Below are positions 7,654 to 58,184 of a stretch of 64,000 bases of DNA, one piece after another. The position numbers were made by a program, and so were the translations under genes. Each line of letters opens with the position of its first letter. Positions within the stretch are counted from its first letter, which is position 1. The DNA is taken from NCBI RefSeq assembly GCF_009914755.1, contig NC_060940.1; one strand, 5' to 3'. A model generated the notes under the pieces. It ran no database searches and was not told the origin of the DNA. It worked only from the letters and a program-made list of their open reading frames with translations. This stretch comes from the human T2T-CHM13v2.0 reference genome, Homo sapiens.

Positions 7654-8869
7654 TGAGTAGCTGGAATTACAGGTGTGCACCACGACGCCCAGCTAATTTT
7701 TGTATTTTTACTAGAGACGGGGTTTCACCATGTTGGCCAGGTTGGTCTCCAACTCCTGACTTCAGGTGATCCGCCTGCGTTGGCCTCCCAAAGTGCTGGG
7801 ATTACAGGCATGAGCCACCGCGCCTGGCCATGTGTCAGAGTTTTATTTCTTTTACAGTTGACTAATATTCTGTTGTCTGTCTAGACCACATTTCTTTATC
7901 CATGCACCTGTGGATAGACTTTAAAAATCCACAGCGGTGGGTTTTTAAAGTGTCCTGGTGGTGCTGCTGTGCAATCAGTGATGAAAACCAAAGCCTGGAT
8001 GGCACGGTGGCTCATGCCTGTAATCCCAGCACTTTGGGAGGCCAAAGCGGGTGGATCACTTTGAGGTCAGGAGTTGGAGACCAGCTTGGCCAACATGGCG
8101 AAACCCCGTCTCTACTAAAAATACAAAAAATTAGCCAGGTGTAGTGGTGGGCACCTGTAATCCCAGCTACTCAGGAGGCTGAGGCACAAGAATTGCTTGA
8201 ACCCAGGAGGCAGAGGTTGCGGTGAGCCGAGATCGCGTCACTGCACTCCAGTCTGGGCGACAGAGTGAGACTCTGTTACATAAAAAAGAAAAGAAAGAAA
8301 AAACCAAGGCATAAGTCCAGCATTTCGCAAATCCTCTCTGCACAATAGAATCACCTGAGAGCTGTTTTAAACAATGCGGATGGCTGGCGCCTGTCCTAGA
8401 GCAGCTGCATCAGATTCTGGGCTGGGGGAGAGGTGGGGCTAGCCAGGAATTGAGTTCCTTGCAGCGTGGGGGAGGGCAAGGTGTGCAGAATTATTTCCCA
8501 GTCTCTGCTGCCTCCTGGTGGCACAATTGACAACAGTCGGGTAGTGACGCCTGTCAGCATGGTTCCTCTTCCTCTCCAGGGCTGGCTTACCCAGCCCCAA
8601 AGGACCCCACTCCCGGGGGTCTGGGGACCCTGAAGGCTCTTGTCTGACCCCTCTCCCCACCTGTATTTCCTGGCTGGCCTTGCGTGCCTCTGTGTTTAGA
8701 AGAACCGACGAGTTTATTAGAGAAGGAAAGACTGCACTGTGTGACCTTGAATAAGACAGTTCGCCCGTGCCTCAGTTTCCCTGACTTTCACGCAAGGATC
8801 ACCACGGTTTCCTCTGTCAAGTTCCTGAGATGGCAGGCAAGCATGCGTGTTAGGGCTGGGGAGGCCACC

Positions 8870-9210: not shown

Positions 9211-9430
9211 AGCCAGTGCCCTTGTGAGTTTTTGACACCTGTTTCAAGAACTCACACCAGGCTGAGGGCTAAGGCGGCAGATGGGGAAGTTGTGGCAGGG
9301 GCGGAACTTGCCCCAGCCTGGCAGGGGGAGGGGTGCCGTCTTGCGGGAGTGGGACAGGCAGGCCCAGGAGTGATAAGCGTGAACTAGAGAGTGCTGTGCA
9401 GGAGGAAGCTGGGGCCGCCGTCGGGCCTTC

Positions 9431-9719
9431 TCCCTCCAGGGGCCCAAGAGCCACTGGTACTCAGTGTCTGGGTGGGGGCAGGGGGGATTTTTGTTCTCCC
9501 AGCACCTGCGGCTGTTGAGACCAGAGAAGCTGGTGGTCGACCACAGCCTGGGGTATTAGTTCACCCCTAGCTTCTCCCCAGCGAGACCCCAGGGCCCTTG
9601 GGCACAGGGGATTAAGCCTCTATCTGCTTACGTGCAAGCGGAAGAAATAGGCCCAGAGAGCAACAGTGGCGGGTCTGCAGTCACACAGCCAACTTGCGCT
9701 TGTGGCAGTGGCAAGGTTG
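9431..9719 (+). other. Candidate far-upstream alternative first exon (PLCG2 long-5'UTR isoform or overlapping lncRNA); 5' end approximate
   Basis: Unique, ATG-free, GC-rich segment ending in the donor TTG|GTGAGT (9720), with a second donor CTG|GTAAGT at 9771. It is preceded by ETS (GGGGAAGT 9283-9290) and GATA (TGATAA 9371-9376) motifs. I recall an upstream PLCG2 start about 40 kb from the main promoter (unverified). Confidence 0.5.
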
Positions 9720-10176
9720 GTGAGTATCTGAGTCTTCAGGCCACGGCATTTTCCGCTCGAGTGGAGCCTGGTAAGTGGCCTCTATTTCTGGTACATTCTC
9801 TGGGAGCCCCCAGTATTTTCCAGACAGAGGGCACTGAAGACAGGCTTTGTGCTGAGGATGGGTCACCTGAGGTCCAGCTGCTCCCCCGTACTCCTCCAGG
9901 GAAGGGCTGGGACCCCTTCTCCTGCGGCTGCCCCTAAAAGGACAGATTGTTGCTTCTGTGGGATGAGGAGAGGCAATGTGGCATGGTGGTTAAGCACGTG
10001 GACTTGGAGCCAGACGGCCTGGGGCTGAATCCTGGCTCCGCCTCTCACCAACTGTGACCTTGGGCAAGGTACTTAAACACCCTGTGCCTCCATTCTTAAT
10101 CCATGAAATGGGCATGATGAAATGACACCTACTCCGTAGGGTTGTTAGAAGAATGAAATGAATTAGTAAGTGCTCA

Positions 10177-25866: not shown

Positions 25867-26651
<785 letters not shown>

Positions 26652-33314: not shown

Positions 33315-34543
33315 CTATAGATGAAACAGAATCATTAGGTTGAGGGGAGAGTGAAAAGGCAGGCCAAGGGACTTCCTGACAATGGGAAAAGCCTGAGCAA
33401 AAGAATACACCACTGCAATATCCCCCCAAGTCCCCAAGGCTGGCTGATCAGGCAGAGCCCCTTCAAATGGGCATTAAAAATACTTGCTAATCCCAAGGTT
33501 TTGGGTGGCCAAGGCAGGAGGATCACTTGAGGCCAGGAGTTTAAGATCAGCCTCAGCAACATAGTGAAACCTCACCTCTACAAACAAATTTTTAATTAGC
33601 GGGAATGGTAGCACATGCCTGTAGTCCCAGCTACTCAGGAGACTGAGGCAGGAGGATCCCTTAAGCCCAGGAGTTAAAGGCTGCAGTGAGATATGATCAT
33701 GCCACTGTATTCTAGCCTGGGCAACAGAGTGAGACCCTGTCTCTTAAAAACAATTAAATCAACAAAAAATAAGATAAAATACAAAAGATAAAAATACTTG
33801 CTTGCTCAGATTTGATTTAGAGGAGACTGAAGAAGAGGCCTTACAGAAGGCAAAGAAGGAAAGTTCCAGATGGGAGAACCCAGCCTCTCCTCCACTGCCG
33901 CAGATGATTCTGCTGTAGCCCAGATTTGCAAGCTCCACTCAGCAAAATAATCTCCCTGTATCAGTCATCCATTGCTGCATAACAGATGACTCCAAAATGC
34001 AGTGGCCTAAAGCAACAATAACTCAGATTTTCTCATGGTTTCTGTGGGTCGGGTATTTGGGAGTGGCTGGGAAGTTCCAGCTCTCTGCAAGGTCTCTTGT
34101 CCAGCTGCAGGTGGATGCCAACTTGGGCTGGGGCCATCTCCAAGGTGTCCTCCCTCTCACGGCCTGTGCCTGGGCTGGGAAGATGTGAGCAGAGGTGAAC
34201 TTTACAGGTGAGGCTCCCCGGGCACCTCTCCAGCATGGTGAGGTCAGGGTAGCTGGTCTTCTAACGTCATCTTGGGGCTCCTAAGTTGTGTGCCTCAAGC
34301 CAGGCAGAAGCTGTCACACATTGTCCCTTTTACTACATTTTATTGAGGCAGCTATAAAAAGTTACAAAGGGGGCCGGGTGTGGTGGCTCATGCCTGTAAT
34401 CCCAGCACTTTGGGAGGCTGAGGTGGGTGGATCACCTGAGGTCTGGAGTTCGAGACCAGCCTGGCCAACATGGTGAAACCCCATCTCTACTAAAAATAGA
34501 AAAATTAGCTGGGCGTGGTGGCAGGCACTTGTAATCTCAGCTA

Positions 34544-34831
<288 letters not shown>

Positions 34832-35351
34832 TTAGCCAGGTGTGATGGTGTGAGCCTGTATCCCTAGCTACTCCGGAGGCTGAGTGGGAGGATTGCTGGA
34901 GCCCAGGAGGTCGAGGCTGGAGTAAGCTGTGATTGATTGAGCCACTGTACTGCACCCTGGGGGACAGAGTGAGATCCTGTCTCAAAATAAATAAATAAAT
35001 AAGTAATAAAAAGTGAAAAGTTACAAAGATCTGGCAGATTCAAGGAAAGGAAACCTGGACCCCATCTCTCCATGGACGAATGTCAATGTGACAGTGTAGA
35101 AGAGCATGTGGGATGGAGGAAGAATCAGGGGATGTGTCTTTGGAAAGTGCAATTGCCCACAGCTGGCATCTGAATAGATTCACTCTCCTCAAAGGCACTT
35201 TTGCGACATTGATCACTGGCCAAGCATGCCCCGTGCAGGTCTCACCCTCCAGCCCATGCAGTTGTCTTTCAGCCACAGGCTGAACACTGGCCATCCCAGC
35301 TGTGTCAGAGGACTTTGGCAAGCCTAATTTTCTCCATCTTTTTTATTACCT

Positions 35352-37521
35352 TGTGGACCAGGTTGAACAGTGTCCCCCAAATTTATGTCCAGCTGGAACC
35401 TCAGAACATAGCTGTATTTGGAAAGAGGGTCTTTGCAGATGTAATCAAGTTGATATGTGGTCATACTGCATTAGGGTACATCCTAAATTGATGAGGCTGG
35501 GTGTGGTGGTTCAATCCCGTAATCCCAGTACTTTGGGAGGCCTAAGTGGGCAGATCACTTGAGCTCAGGAGTTCGAGACCAGCCTGGACAAAACTGAGAC
35601 CCTGTCTCTACAAAAAATATAAAAAATTAGCCGGGCATAGTAGTGTGCACCTGTGGTCCCAGCTACTCGGGAGGCTGAGGTGGGAGCATTGGTTTAGCCT
35701 AGAGGTGAAGGCCGCAGTGAACCGTGATCACCCCATTGCACTCCAGCCTGGGTGACAGAGTGAGATGAGACACTGTCCCCCCACAAAAAAAATAAATCAA
35801 TGACTGGTGTGTCATAAGAAGAGGGACATTTGGACACAGAGACATGCACAGAGGGAAGATGATATGAAGGCAACACAGCGACACACAGGGAGAGCACCAT
35901 GTGACAACTGAGGCAGAGGATGGGGAGAGGCATCTGCAAACCAGAACACACAAAAGATTCCCAGCAACCACCCAAAGCTTGGAGAGAGGCATGGGACAAT
36001 CTCCCGCAGAGCCTCCGGAAGAAAGCAACCATGCCGGCCAGGTGTGGAGGCTCATGCCTGTAATTCCAGCACTTTGGGAGGCCCAGGAGGGCAGATCACT
36101 TGAGGTCAGGAGTTCAAGACCAGCCTGGGCTACATGATGAAACCCTGTTTCTACATAAAATACAAAAATTAGCTGGGCGTCATGATGGGCACCTGTAATC
36201 CCAGCTACCCGGGAGGCTGAGGCAGGAGAATTGCTTGGACCCGAGAAGCAGAGGTTGCTGTGAGCTGAGGTGGTGCTAGTGCCCTCCAGCCTGGGTGACA
36301 GAGTGAGATGAGACACTGTCCCCCCACAAAAAAAATAAATCAATGACTGGTGTGTCATAAGAAGAGGGACATTTGGACACAGAGACATGCACAGAGGGAA
36401 GATGATATGAAGGCAACACAGCGACACACAGGGAGAGCACCATGTGACAACTGAGGCAGAGGATGGGGAGAGGCATCTGCAAACCAGAACACACAAAAGA
36501 TTCCCAGCAACCACCCAAAGCTTGGAGAGAGGCATGGGACAATCTCCCGCAGAGCCTCCGGAAGAAAGCAACCATGCCGGCCAGGTGTGGAGGCTCATGC
36601 CTGTAATTCCAGCACTTTGGGAGGCCCAGGAGGGCAGATCACTTGAGGTCAGGAGTTCAAGACCAGCCTGGGCTACATGATGAAACCCTGTTTCTACATA
36701 AAATACAAAAATTAGCTGGGCGTCATGATGGGCACCTGTAATCCCAGCTACCCGGGAGGCTGAGGCAGGAGAATTGCTTGGACCCGAGAAGCAGAGGTTG
36801 CTGTGAGCTGAGGTGGTGCTAGTGCCCTCCAGCCTGGGTGACAGAGTGAGATGAGACACTGTCCCCCCACAAAAAAAATAAATCAATGACTGGTGTGTCA
36901 TAAGAAGAGGGACATTTGGACACAGAGACATGCACAGAGGGAAGATGATATGAAGGCAACACAGCGACACACAGGGAGAGCACCATGTGACAACTGAGGC
37001 AGAGGATGGGGAGAGGCATCTGCAAACCAGAACACACAAAAGATTCCCAGCAACCACCCAAAGCTTGGAGAGAGGCATGGGACAATCTCCCGCAGAGCCT
37101 CCGGAAGAAAGCAACCATGCCGGCCAGGTGTGGAGGCTCATGCCTGTAATTCCAGCACTTTGGGAGGCCCAGGAGGGCAGATCACTTGAGGTCAGGAGTT
37201 CAAGACCAGCCTGGGCTACATGATGAAACCCTGTTTCTACATAAAATACAAAAATTAGCTGGGCGTCATGATGGGCACCTGTAATCCCAGCTACCCGGGA
37301 GGCTGAGGCAGGAGAATTGCTTGGACCCGAGAAGCAGAGGTTGCTGTGAGCTGAGGTGGTGCTAGTGCCCTCCAGCCTGGATGACAGAGTGAGACTCGGT
37401 CTCAATAAATAAATAAATAATAAAGAAGAAACCAACCCTTTTGACCCCGGGGTCTCAGACTTTTAGCCACCACATCAGCGAGTTATGGTGTTTGTTATAG
37501 CAGCTCTGGGAAACTAATGCA
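35352..37521 (+). mobile_element. MLT1C-like (ERVL-MaLR) solo LTR interrupted by two sense Alus (from 35495 and from 37122) and the 543-bp triplication
   Basis: MLT1 motifs GGTTGAA..GTCCCCCAAA, TATTTGGAAAGAGGGTCTTTGCAGATGTAAT, AATGACTGGTGT..ATTTGGACACAGAGAC and terminal GGAAACTAATGCA. Confidence 0.8.
35741..37380 (+). repeat. Tandem array of 3 x 543 bp (plus 11-bp terminal microhomology); each unit is Alu 3' end + MLT1C middle + Alu body
   Basis: Units start at 35741, 36284 and 36827, with CTCCAGCCTGG recurring at 37370-37380. Identical 78-aa ORFs occur at 35901, 36444 and 36987, and homopolymer lengths (C6, A8) match in all copies. Confidence 0.98.
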
Positions 37522-38088
37522 TGTTTTCAGTGACATTTTAGCCCCTTCTGAATGGTCTGGATGGCTGGTTGACAGCTAAGTTCAGACCCGATGCAAAAGC
37601 GCAGTCTATGTAGGAATGTCCCCTGTGGACAGCTGCTGTGTAGCCAAGGTGGGTTACATACTAGGAAAGGGCCCTGGGGGCCCCCACAGGGAGCTAACTC
37701 TATTGACGGGGGACCCAGGTAACAGATGCAGGCATTTGCTGTGAGTCACAAGACACTGATGTGTGTTTGCTTGCTTGGGTATTTTTTTACTTTTTGTTTT
37801 TTAACTTTGTAAATGAGGCTTAGCCTTCCCAGGTGTGTCCTACCTCTTCTGTCTCCTGTCTCCCATCTCTGTGTCCTGTCTCCTGGAGCTGGTTTGATTT
37901 TGTCAACATGGGCACTGTTTATGATGGCAACAGCTGTGACCTTTAGAGTCAAGAGGAAATCCACCTACAGGGACTCAGGCCTTTCTCTCCAAGTGGGGCC
38001 ATAAACTGTTATTCACCAAAACATGGGGGAGGCATAGGAGGGAAACACAGCCGCTCCTAGGGGAAGCCACTCTGTTTCTCCTCTGCAG

Positions 38089-39344
38089 GGCTGGAGACAC
38101 AGGTGGACACCTGGCTGTGCCCCCAACCCTGCCCTCAAGCTCTGCACCATTTTGTAACCCTCAAAAGCAATCAGGCCTCTGTACTTGCTGAGCCCACTGC
38201 CTGAGAAGTCCATTTTCCAGGCCCTCACTTAGCCAGCGCCTCCTCCTCCTCCTCTTCCTCCTCCTCCTCAGGTCACCCTCCTCCAAGAAGCCTTTGTGAC
38301 CACCACACAAAAACCCAGCCCTTCCTCCCCCATTATATTCATCTGCTCTGCTAAAGTGCTCACCCCACTGGAAATGATCTTGTTTATGTGTTTCCTTGTT
38401 TACTGTCTGTCTTCAGTAGAATGGAAGAGCCATCGGTATTTTGTCTTTTTTTCCCCTTGTCCATTCTTATATCCTCAGCTTCTAGAACATTCCCTGGAAC
38501 ACAGCAAGTGTTCAGTATTGTTCATGGAGTGACAGATGTCTCAGCCAAGAAGGTACAATCACAGGGAAGAATGACTTCAACTGGTCTTGACTTCAACCTG
38601 CTTCCAGCCTGGTTCCCTTCTCCCACCTCCCTACAGCCCACAGAAGATCTTTTCCAAACTGGAAATCTGTCCAGGTCATTCTTCTGCTCTAAGGCTTTCA
38701 GTAGCTCCCCCTTATCCCCAGGAGGAAGTCCAAATGCCTTAACAAGTGTCAAGGAACACTTGGTGAGCCCTGCTTTCCTTGCTAGTCACTCGTGCACAGC
38801 TGAGTCTTTCCCCAGAGTGGATGTCATTCATGCTGTTCCCATTGCCTGGATTCCTGCTCCTCTCCACCCCATTCAACTGATAAACTCGTGGTTTTTTTTT
38901 TTTTTTTTTTTTTTTTTGAAACTGAGTCTCGATCTATCACCCACGCTGGAGTGCAGTGGTGCAATCTCGGCTCACTGCAACTTCTGCTTCCTGGGTTCAA
39001 GAGATTCTTGTGCCTCAGCCTCCCGAATAGCTGGGGTTACGGGCGTCTGCCAACATGCCTGGCTAATTTTTGTATTTTTAATAGAGATGGGGTTTCACCA
39101 TGTTGGCCAGGCTCTTCTCAAACTCCTGACCTAAAGGGATCCCCCCGCCTTGGCCTACCAAAGTGCTGGAATTACAGGCGTGAACCACTGTGCCTGGCCT
39201 CAACTGATACACTCTTGTCCTTTTACTAGGCTCAGCTTAGGGACCGTCACCTCCAGGAAGCCTTCCCAACCTGCACTGATCACTTCTTCTTCTTCTCTTT
39301 GGGATTATCACTTGTATTGTAATAAAATCTTGTTTTTTTTCTTT

Positions 39345-39345
<1 letters not shown>
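38089..39345 (+). ncRNA. Possible terminal exon of a non-coding transcript from the upstream promoter
   Basis: Strong acceptor ctctgtttctcctctgcAG ending 38088, and AATAAA at 39321-39326 followed by T-rich sequence. The interior is largely L2- and Alu-derived. The window holds no transcript evidence. Confidence 0.25.
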
Positions 39346-40670
<1,325 letters not shown>

Positions 40671-51142: not shown

Positions 51143-51276
51143 AGAAGTAGCGAGCGCCGGCGGCGGAGGGCGTGAGCGGCGCTGAGTGACCCGAGTCGGG
51201 ACGCGGGCTGCGCGCGCGGGACCCCGGAGCCCAAACCCGGGGCAGGCGGGCAGCTGTGCCCGGGCGGCACGGCCAG
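51143..51276 (+). other. PLCG2: PLCG2 non-coding exon 1 (main TSS approximate)
   Basis: Very GC/CpG-rich, ATG-free segment just downstream of GC boxes, ending in the donor CAG|GTGAGC at 51276/51277. It matches my recollection of the PLCG2 mRNA leader (AGAAGTAGCGAGCGCC...GGCACGGCCAG|CTTCCTGATT). Confidence 0.85.

Positions 51277-57786: not shown

Positions 57787-58184
<398 letters not shown>

What the first reader, a model, noticed from the sequence alone, without database searches (positions are those of the whole stretch)
35741..37380. Perfect 3 x 543-bp tandem array built by Alu-Alu crossover, 13.8 kb upstream of the PLCG2 TSS
Seen: three copies that look base-identical, including homopolymer lengths. 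The left parent Alu reads TTGCA|CTCCAGCCTGG|GTGACAGAGTGAGATGAG and the right parent reads GTGCC|CTCCAGCCTGG|ATGACAGAGTGAGACTCG. The two internal Alus are chimeras, GTGCC|CTCCAGCCTGG|GTGAC. This pins the crossover to an 11-bp window. Inference: a single-copy ancestor (Alu, MLT1C middle, Alu) was duplicated by Alu-mediated recombination or template switching, then expanded again by unequal exchange between the perfect copies. Zero divergence between copies made of old repeats means the event is very recent, so this is probably a multi-allelic human CNV (1/2/3+ copies). Because it is pure Alu+LTR sequence, short reads would largely miss it. From memory, the reference spacing across this interval is about 1.1 kb shorter, which would fit a single reference copy (unverified). 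It lies in the regulatory region of an immune and Alzheimer-associated gene.
Basis: partly seen in the sequence, partly recalled or inferred. Interest (0 to 1): 0.85.

Follow-up and report, generated by a model that had tools for sequence, protein, structure and literature searches.

The report
Alu-bounded 543-bp triplication upstream of PLCG2
Three letter-perfect head-to-tail copies of a 543-base piece of old repeat DNA sit between the two PLCG2 promoters; they were made by recombination between two neighbouring Alu elements, which is a known and fairly ordinary kind of human structural change, and no effect on the gene has been shown.

Summary
Window 35741-37380 is a perfect period-543 stretch of 1640 bp, made of three identical units plus the 11-bp CTCCAGCCTGG. 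This genome holds the unit nowhere else.

Anatomy: one old LTR-like interspersed element (about 35354-37540) received two same-strand Alu insertions. The segment from the left Alu's tail to the right Alu's head was then triplicated. Both internal Alus are right-Alu head plus left-Alu tail, with the switch confined to 11 bp.

The parent Alus are only about 76% identical. The first step was therefore a short-homology Alu/Alu rearrangement. The extra copy most likely came from unequal exchange between perfect 543-bp units.

This matches the multi-copy transposon-mediated rearrangements of Balachandran et al. 2022 (PMC9675761), so the kind is known.

Zero differences bound the age only to within about 4-6 Myr (recalled rates), not to "very recent".

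I could not test copy-number polymorphism, the GRCh38 copy number or the ape state, because no other human or ape sequence was reachable. Nothing found indicates a regulatory effect. The array lies in the intron of LNC-PLCG2 transcripts, about 26 kb from the Alzheimer SNP rs12446759.

Interest is modest.

The parts
35354..35492 (+). 5' part of an old LTR-like interspersed element (the host of both Alu insertions), outside the array
   Evidence: 11 of 17 dispersed copies of the middle element also match 35354-35494 on the same strand and in collinear order. The MaLR/MLT1-type name is recalled, not tested.
35493..35787 (+). Left parent Alu (full length). Its last ~47 bases from 35741 (CTCCAGCCTGG onward, plus the A-rich tail) are the start of unit 1.
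   Evidence: two sub-threshold Metazoa_SRP matches (35496-35610 and 35630-35736, + strand), the dimeric 7SL-derived pattern. alignment; possible 10-bp target-site duplication AAATTGATGA / AAATCAATGA, read by eye.
35741..36283 (+). Unit 1 (543 bp): Alu tail 35741-35787, LTR-like middle 35788-36035, Alu head 36036-36283
   Evidence: identical to units 2 and 3; 100% hit
36284..36826 (+). Unit 2 (543 bp), identical to unit 1. It begins inside the first chimeric Alu (36036-36330).
36827..37369 (+). Unit 3 (543 bp), identical to unit 1. It begins inside the second chimeric Alu (36579-36873).
37370..37380 (+). Closing 11-bp CTCCAGCCTGG, the interval to which the Alu-Alu exchange is confined (also at 35741, 36284 and 36827)
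   Evidence: bounded by an A/C mismatch on the left and a G/A mismatch on the right between the parent Alus; 73% G+C
37122..37423 (+). Right parent Alu (full length, own tail ATGACAGAGTGAGACTCGG... and (AAAT)n tail). Its head up to 37369 is part of unit 3.
   Evidence: Metazoa_SRP matches 37123-37235 and 37258-37405, + strand
37424..37540 (+). 3' part of the same old LTR-like element, outside the array. Its first ~15-20 bases repeat the bases just before each Alu head (target-site duplication of the right Alu).
   Evidence: 11 of 17 dispersed copies match 37424-37540 collinearly. In 9 of them the matched stretch overlaps the end of the middle match by 15-20 nt of the copy.

Best explanation
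This is a tandem triplication created by a transposon-mediated (Alu/Alu) rearrangement.

Ancestral state (inferred from the anatomy): one old LTR-like element carried two independent same-orientation Alu insertions about 245 bp apart.

Step 1 (shown by the junction, mechanism inferred): an exchange or template switch took place between the right Alu on one template and the left Alu on the other. It fell at equivalent Alu positions, inside an 11-bp identical tract (CTCCAGCCTGG). It duplicated the 543 bp between the two exchange points and left a full-length chimeric Alu (right head + left tail). The parent Alus are only ~76% identical and share no perfect tract longer than 16 bp. Step 1 was therefore a homeologous or microhomology-guided event (replicative template switching, or short-tract recombination), not classical long-homology NAHR.

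Step 2 (inferred): the two perfect 543-bp units then misaligned, by unequal sister-chromatid or interhomologue exchange or by replication slippage, and a third copy was added with the same junction.

All of this happened recently on the evolutionary scale, probably on the human lineage. An array of perfect 543-bp units is expected to keep changing copy number, so it is probably (about 55%) polymorphic among people.

No function is shown. The default reading is a neutral intronic structural variant.
For: - Perfect period-543 stretch 35741-37380, three identical units.
- The unit is unique to this locus in the genome: 3 hits at 100%, and the remaining matches listed are to the Alu part only at 79-88%.
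- All four Alu positions are on the + strand with paired 7SL-like matches.
- Internal Alus equal the right Alu over 259/259 aligned positions through the 11-mer, and the left Alu over 60/60 from the 11-mer on. Left vs right Alu before the exchange point: 187 matches, 58 mismatches, 4 gaps. The exchange tract is 11 bp, the sixth-longest perfect tract between them; the longest is 16.
- Single-copy ancestor: 8 of 17 dispersed copies of the middle element align collinearly to left flank, middle and right flank. The right-flank match overlaps the end of the middle by 15-20 nt, i.e. one target-site duplication for one right-Alu insertion.
- The kind is documented in Balachandran et al. 2022, PMC9675761, sections 8 and 11. 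They report 493 TE-mediated rearrangements. The 'HR' class is defined by a chimeric full-length TE with breakpoint microhomology. Microhomologies are GC-rich (median 57.1%; ours is 73%). [quoted passage not shown]
Against: - Nothing in the sequence contradicts the structure.
- The order and number of events cannot be read from one haplotype, because identical junctions are equally expected from a one-step double template switch.
- Recency rests on zero differences. These bound the age only loosely (95% bounds about 4.2-6.4 Myr with recalled rates), and gene conversion between units could also maintain identity.
- Polymorphism, the reference copy number and the ape state were not tested. Two exact-match scans of other collections with a 46-mer of the unit found nothing. 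Three literature searches found no description of the locus.
Confidence: 0.82

Rival explanations
1. One-step origin: a single replication-based event (FoSTeS/MMBIR-type) made two successive template switches at the same 11-bp microhomology and produced the triplication directly. No two-copy intermediate and no later unequal exchange were involved.
For: The two internal junctions are identical. The parent Alus are too diverged (~76%, longest perfect tract 16 bp) for efficient classical homologous recombination, which favours a replicative mechanism for at least the first junction.
Against: Identical junctions are also the automatic result of unequal exchange between two existing units. Once two perfect 543-bp units exist, misalignment is easy. 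Balachandran et al. interpret their multi-copy cases as additional gains after an initial rearrangement.
Confidence: 0.15
2. An older array (predating the human-chimpanzee split, or fixed long ago) whose units are kept identical by gene conversion or repeated unequal exchange. In that case zero divergence does not date the origin, and the array may be fixed rather than variable.
For: Zero differences among 3 x 543 bp are compatible with ages up to several Myr even without homogenisation. Tandem arrays are known to evolve in concert (established knowledge, recalled).
Against: With only three units and sharp edges, there is no sign of conversion spreading into the ~76%-identical parental Alu parts just outside the array. 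The array holds 21 CpGs in three units and C6/A8 homopolymers, all unmutated.
Confidence: 0.07
3. Assembly artefact: the true CHM13 haplotype has fewer (or more) units, and the three perfect copies reflect mis-assembly or over-polishing.
For: Perfect identity of copies is what a consensus artefact would also give. No reads were available to check.
Against: The array is 1.6 kb, much shorter than the long reads behind a telomere-to-telomere assembly (recalled knowledge), and both flanks are unique. The junction structure is exactly that of a biological Alu/Alu exchange.
Confidence: 0.02

Closest known systems
Multi-copy transposable-element-mediated rearrangements (mCNV TEMRs), 'TEMR-HR' class, of Balachandran et al. 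2022 (PMC9675761; sections 8 and 11 and the xlsx supplement read)
   Same: - Same-orientation Alus flank the amplified segment.
- Breakpoints fall at equivalent Alu positions, giving a full-length chimeric Alu.
- The microhomology is short and GC-rich: 11 bp here, against 6-65 bp in the 'HR' duplications that I read in Data 2, part 35.
- There are more than two copies.
[quoted passage not shown] Our unit is 295 Alu + 248 LTR-like of 543 bases (54.3% / 45.7%).
   Different: - Identity with that published case is not shown. Its locus is given only in a PDF figure that I could not read.
- The readable xlsx has no chr16 row beginning 8173-8177 (the GRCh38 neighbourhood as I recall it). In the part that I read, it has only one chr16 duplication, at 23.45 Mb.
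- Any ~540-bp Alu-to-Alu unit is about 54% Alu, so the percentage match is weak evidence.
- Their cases were shown to vary between people. Ours was not tested.
Variable-number tandem repeats / large-unit minisatellites
   Same: Head-to-tail array of a few-hundred-bp unit in an intron, with perfect units that favour unequal exchange.
   Different: - There are only three units.
- The origin is traceable to one Alu/Alu junction rather than to slippage of a short motif.
- Variability was not tested.
- It is missed by TRF when the longest period is 500.
Pathogenic Alu/Alu-mediated copy-number variants (AAMR; recalled from the literature on 17p13.3 and other loci, not read here)
   Same: Chimeric Alu at the junction, short microhomology, diverged Alu pair, and a replicative template-switch model.
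   Different: Those are usually kilobase-to-megabase deletions or duplications affecting exons. This one is 543 bp of repeat-derived intronic DNA with no known phenotype.

Membership tests
TE-mediated rearrangement, homology class (TEMR-HR; Balachandran et al. 2022) | The rearranged segment is bounded by two TEs of the same family in the same orientation (for duplications) | tested here: met
   7SL-like matches on the + strand at all four Alu positions; the left, chimeric and right Alus align over their whole length.
TE-mediated rearrangement, homology class (TEMR-HR; Balachandran et al. 2022) | [quoted passage not shown] | tested here: met
   the chimera matches the right Alu 259/259 through the 11-mer and the left Alu 60/60 from the 11-mer on. 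The microhomology is 11 bp, and there is no inserted or lost base.
Multi-copy CNV (mCNV) TEMR | Higher-order amplification (three or more copies) with the same junction | tested here: met
   three identical units and two identical chimeric junctions.
Multi-copy CNV (mCNV) TEMR | Copy number differs between human haplotypes | not testable with these tools
   Only the window's own haploid assembly is held ('no relatives here'). Scans of genome contigs and viral contigs with a 46-mer of the unit gave 0 matches. The supplements of two population long-read papers gave nothing: one search was not read (time-out), and one search was a cut file with no relevant hit.
VNTR | Tandem head-to-tail repetition of a unit | tested here: met
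VNTR | Variable number among individuals | not testable with these tools
   As above
Segmental duplication | Duplicated block of at least 1 kb at 90% identity or more (definition recalled) | tested here: not met
   The unit is 543 bp.
   No Dfam/RepeatMasker library was available. Shown instead: the 241-bp middle is an old dispersed repeat, with 451 first-look candidates. Of these, 40 were scored, giving 45 listed matches: 3 at this locus at 100% and the others at 67-76% over long stretches (short partial matches up to 88%).
cis-regulatory element of PLCG2 | Overlap with an annotated or assayed enhancer, silencer or promoter | tested here: inconclusive
   None of the RefSeq functional elements listed in the hub's table overlaps 35741-37380, but 4 enhancers are not listed there. 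There is no CpG island: GC is about 0.52 and there are 7 CpG per unit. The ETS-core CCGGAAG occurs once per unit, but its count in the window (4) is not above chance (mean 4.55).

The most novel reading that the evidence does not exclude
The array is a human-specific, multi-allelic copy-number variant lying between the two alternative PLCG2 promoters (LNC exon 1 at 9375 and canonical exon 1 at 51143). It is in linkage disequilibrium with the Alzheimer SNP rs12446759, about 26 kb away. By changing spacing, chromatin or the number of LTR-derived factor sites (one CCGGAAG per unit), it contributes to the reported genotype-dependent ratio of LNC-PLCG2 to canonical PLCG2 transcripts. It would then be a hidden causal or co-causal variant at a GWAS locus.
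Probability: 0.03. Interest if true: 0.7.

Novelty: new member of a known kind. Interest (0 to 1): 0.3.

Why it matters
As it stands, this is a clean textbook-quality example of how two diverged Alus give birth to a tandem array. The ancestral state, the 11-bp exchange interval and the follow-on copy gain can all be read from one haplotype.

It would matter more if copy number varies among people. The array sits inside the intron of the LNC-PLCG2 transcripts, between the two promoters whose relative use is associated with the Alzheimer-protective allele of rs12446759 (Turner et al. 2025, PMC12738660; abstract and passages read). Arrays made of repeats are often left out of SNP-based fine-mapping.

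No evidence for such an effect was found here.

Tried and rejected
1. Other human haplotypes or apes. The own-genome tool holds only this assembly. Exact 46-mer scans of genome contigs and viral contigs, made in the hope of stray human contigs, found 0 matches.

2. Published catalogues.
- Balachandran 2022 xlsx: no row with coordinates beginning 81763-81766 or 8173-8176, and no 'PLCG2', 'mCNV', 'MaLR' or 'triplication'. The only '8177' hits are on chr19. In part 35 the only chr16 duplication is at 23.45 Mb. The coordinate prefixes rest on my recalled GRCh38 position of PLCG2. The four PDFs of that paper could not be read.
- Schloissnig 2025 supplement: not read, the call timed out.
- Logsdon 2025 supplement (a cut file): no PLCG2 and no relevant coordinate.
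- Sulovari 2019: not held under the DOI or under a PMC id that I guessed.

3. Literature. 'PLCG2 + tandem repeat + Alu' gave 14 papers, 'PLCG2 + VNTR' gave 16, and 'PLCG2 + structural variant + long-read + Alzheimer' gave 8. By title and abstract, none describes a repeat or SV upstream of PLCG2. One was checked by passage.

4. Right flank 37425-37530 as a genome-wide query: found only itself. Its membership of the LTR-like element was shown instead by local alignment of fetched copies.

5. I give no figure from memory.

6. ETS-site enrichment: not above chance.

7. Segmental-duplication reading: rejected, because the unit is under 1 kb and found at one locus only.

Full report
**1. The observation**

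- A script that compared every base with the base 543 positions downstream found one unbroken run of identity for i = 35741..36837. The perfect periodic stretch is therefore 35741-37380, or 1640 bp.
- The three units (35741-36283, 36284-36826, 36827-37369) are letter-identical. The last 11 bases (37370-37380, CTCCAGCCTGG) repeat the first 11 of each unit.
- The repeat finder gives the same 543/543 spacing.
- Tandem Repeats Finder, run here with a longest period of 500, did not report the array.
- In the whole assembly that holds the window (24 contigs, 3.12 Gb), the 543-bp unit has three 100% matches, all here. Every other match listed is to its Alu part only, at 79-88% identity; 40 of 7250 first-look candidates were scored.

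**2. Anatomy**

(a) The Alus.
- Each of the four Alu positions (35493-, 36036-, 36579-, 37122-) gives two sub-threshold matches to the metazoan SRP RNA model on the + strand. Scores are 28.6-42.6 bits against a gathering score of 70. This is the pattern of a dimeric 7SL-derived Alu.
- From recall, the left one looks AluJ-like and the right one AluS-like. I did not test that.

(b) The middle.
- The 241-bp middle (35795-36035) is an old dispersed repeat. It has 451 first-look candidates. Of these, 40 were scored, giving 45 listed matches: three at this locus at 100%, and the others at 67-76% over long stretches, with short partial matches up to 88%.

(c) The host element.
- I examined 17 dispersed copies. 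Three came. The other 14 I picked from the scored hits because their match reached the 3' end of the query, and I fetched them with 500-bp flanks.
- I aligned each to window 35200-37700 at E <= 0.05.
- 11 of 17 also match the left flank 35354-35494 on the same strand and in order. 11 of 17 match the right flank 37424-37540. 8 of 17 match both.
- One copy (L018) gave no match in the three non-Alu stretches that the script printed. Two copies (L016, L019) gave only short opposite-strand matches to the left flank, which I did not count.
- Some right-flank matches are weak (E 0.003-0.023).
- In 9 copies, the stretch matching the right flank overlaps the end of the stretch matching the middle by 15-20 nt. 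This is what a target-site duplication of the right Alu would give.
- The ancestral locus was therefore one old LTR-like element (about 35354-37540) with two independent Alu insertions. From recalled hallmarks it is a MaLR/MLT1-type LTR. The label MLT1C cannot be tested here.

**3. The junction**

- In alignment A1 (counted), the internal Alu is identical to the right Alu at 259 of 259 aligned positions up to and through CTCCAGCCTGG.
- It is identical to the left Alu at 60 of 60 positions from that 11-mer onward.
- Against the other parent it differs at 58 positions plus gaps (head), and at 12 mismatches plus 12 gaps (tail).
- The exchange is thus confined to 11 bp, bounded by an A/C difference on the left and a G/A difference on the right.
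- The two parents are only about 76% identical before the exchange point (187 matches, 58 mismatches, 4 gaps).
- Their longest perfect tract is 16 bp. The 11-mer is the sixth longest, and it is 73% G+C.

**4. Mechanism**

- Shown: a chimeric, full-length Alu at each internal boundary, and no inserted or lost bases.
- Inferred, step 1: an Alu/Alu exchange or template switch at equivalent positions duplicated the 543 bp between the exchange points.
- The parents share so little uninterrupted identity that classical long-homology NAHR is unlikely. The thresholds of a hundred or more bases are recalled. A microhomology-guided replicative switch or short-tract homeologous recombination fits better.
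- Inferred, step 2: two perfect 543-bp units then offer ample homology for unequal exchange or slippage, which adds a third unit with the same junction.
- A one-step double template switch gives the same product and cannot be excluded (rival, 0.15).

**5. Age**

- The unit has 7 CpGs.
- I used recalled round rates: 1.0e-8 per non-CpG site and 1.1e-7 per CpG site per generation, with 29-year generations.
- With these, the chance of seeing no difference reaches 50% at about 1.0-1.5 Myr. It reaches 5% at about 4.2 Myr (three independent lineages) or 6.4 Myr (two lineages).
- 'Zero divergence' therefore places the events probably after the human-chimpanzee split. It does not by itself make them very recent, or the array polymorphic.
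- Homogenisation between units would loosen the bound further.

**6. Comparison with what is known**

- Balachandran et al. 2022 (PMC9675761; abstract, sections 8 and 11, and parts 1 and 35 of the xlsx supplement read) catalogued 493 TE-mediated rearrangements in three genomes.
- They call a rearrangement homology-driven when the chimeric TE rebuilds a full TE with breakpoint microhomology, and they found GC-rich microhomologies.
- The present array meets each structural criterion (see Membership tests).
[quoted passage not shown] Our unit is 295 + 248 of 543 bases (54.3% / 45.7%).
- That is a lead, not an identification. Any ~540-bp Alu-to-Alu unit is about 54% Alu, the locus is named only in a PDF that I could not read, and the readable table has no row in the expected chr16 neighbourhood (the expected coordinates are recalled).

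**7. Context**

- Primers from Turner et al. 2025 (PMC12738660; abstract and passages read) place that paper's 'LNC' exon 1 at 9676-9695, LNC exon 2 at 26584-26603 and PLCG2 exon 2 at 57800-57819 of the window. This agrees with the hub's exon table.
- It is 13,763 bp upstream of canonical exon 1.
- It lies between the lncRNA alternative exons 34111-34207 and 38479-39624.
- The paper states that rs12446759 lies 13 bp after LNC exon 1, i.e. near window 9732, about 26 kb from the array. [quoted passage not shown]
- The paper has no occurrence of 'structural varia' or 'tandem'.
- Nothing links the array to that signal. No listed RefSeq functional element overlaps it (four enhancers are not listed in the hub's table). 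There is no CpG island. The one ETS-core motif per unit is not enriched.

**8. What remains open**

- Copy number in GRCh38, in other people and in apes could not be examined with the collections at hand.
- No paper describing the locus was found in three searches. Supplements and PDFs that I could not read may hold it.
The Alu parts are unmappable, but the 241-bp middle has no near copy in this genome. Balachandran et al. nevertheless report that their all-repeat case needed ddPCR.

**9. Verdict**

- The feature is real and was described exactly.
- The mechanistic reading is well supported.
- The kind is known.
- The population and regulatory claims are untested.
- Interest 0.3. Novelty: new member of a known kind, possibly already catalogued.

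Noticed in passing
window 35628-35679, 36170-36221, 36713-36764, 37256-37307: Sub-threshold matches to the Rfam family mir-1268 (61.5 and 38.8 bits against a gathering score of 83) fall inside the right monomers of the Alus. This is probably just the Alu-derived nature of that miRNA family, not a gene.
   Followed up: no
window 38239-38269 and 38892-38917: A (CCT)10 microsatellite and a T26 homopolymer lie just downstream of the array. The T26 lies inside, and the (CCT)10 about 0.2 kb upstream of, the lncRNA alternative exon 38479-39624. Both are likely length-polymorphic.
   Followed up: no
window 34500-34830: Further same-strand Alu sequence lies about 0.7 kb upstream of the left parent Alu, 70-77% identical to the array's Alus (families D2 and D3). 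It is an additional substrate for Alu/Alu rearrangement in this intron.
   Followed up: no
window 9676-9695, 26584-26603, 57800-57819: Published LNC-PLCG2 primers map uniquely to the annotated exons. The 51-bp retained-intron isoform of the paper equals the 9375-9719 versus 9375-9770 exon variants of the hub table, which places rs12446759 near 9732.
   Followed up: partly
supplement of PMC9675761 (Data 1 and Data 2): In the rows that I read, the 3PRIME_TE column repeats the entry of the 5PRIME_TE column, while the two sequence columns differ. The 3' element's coordinates cannot be taken from that table.
   Followed up: no
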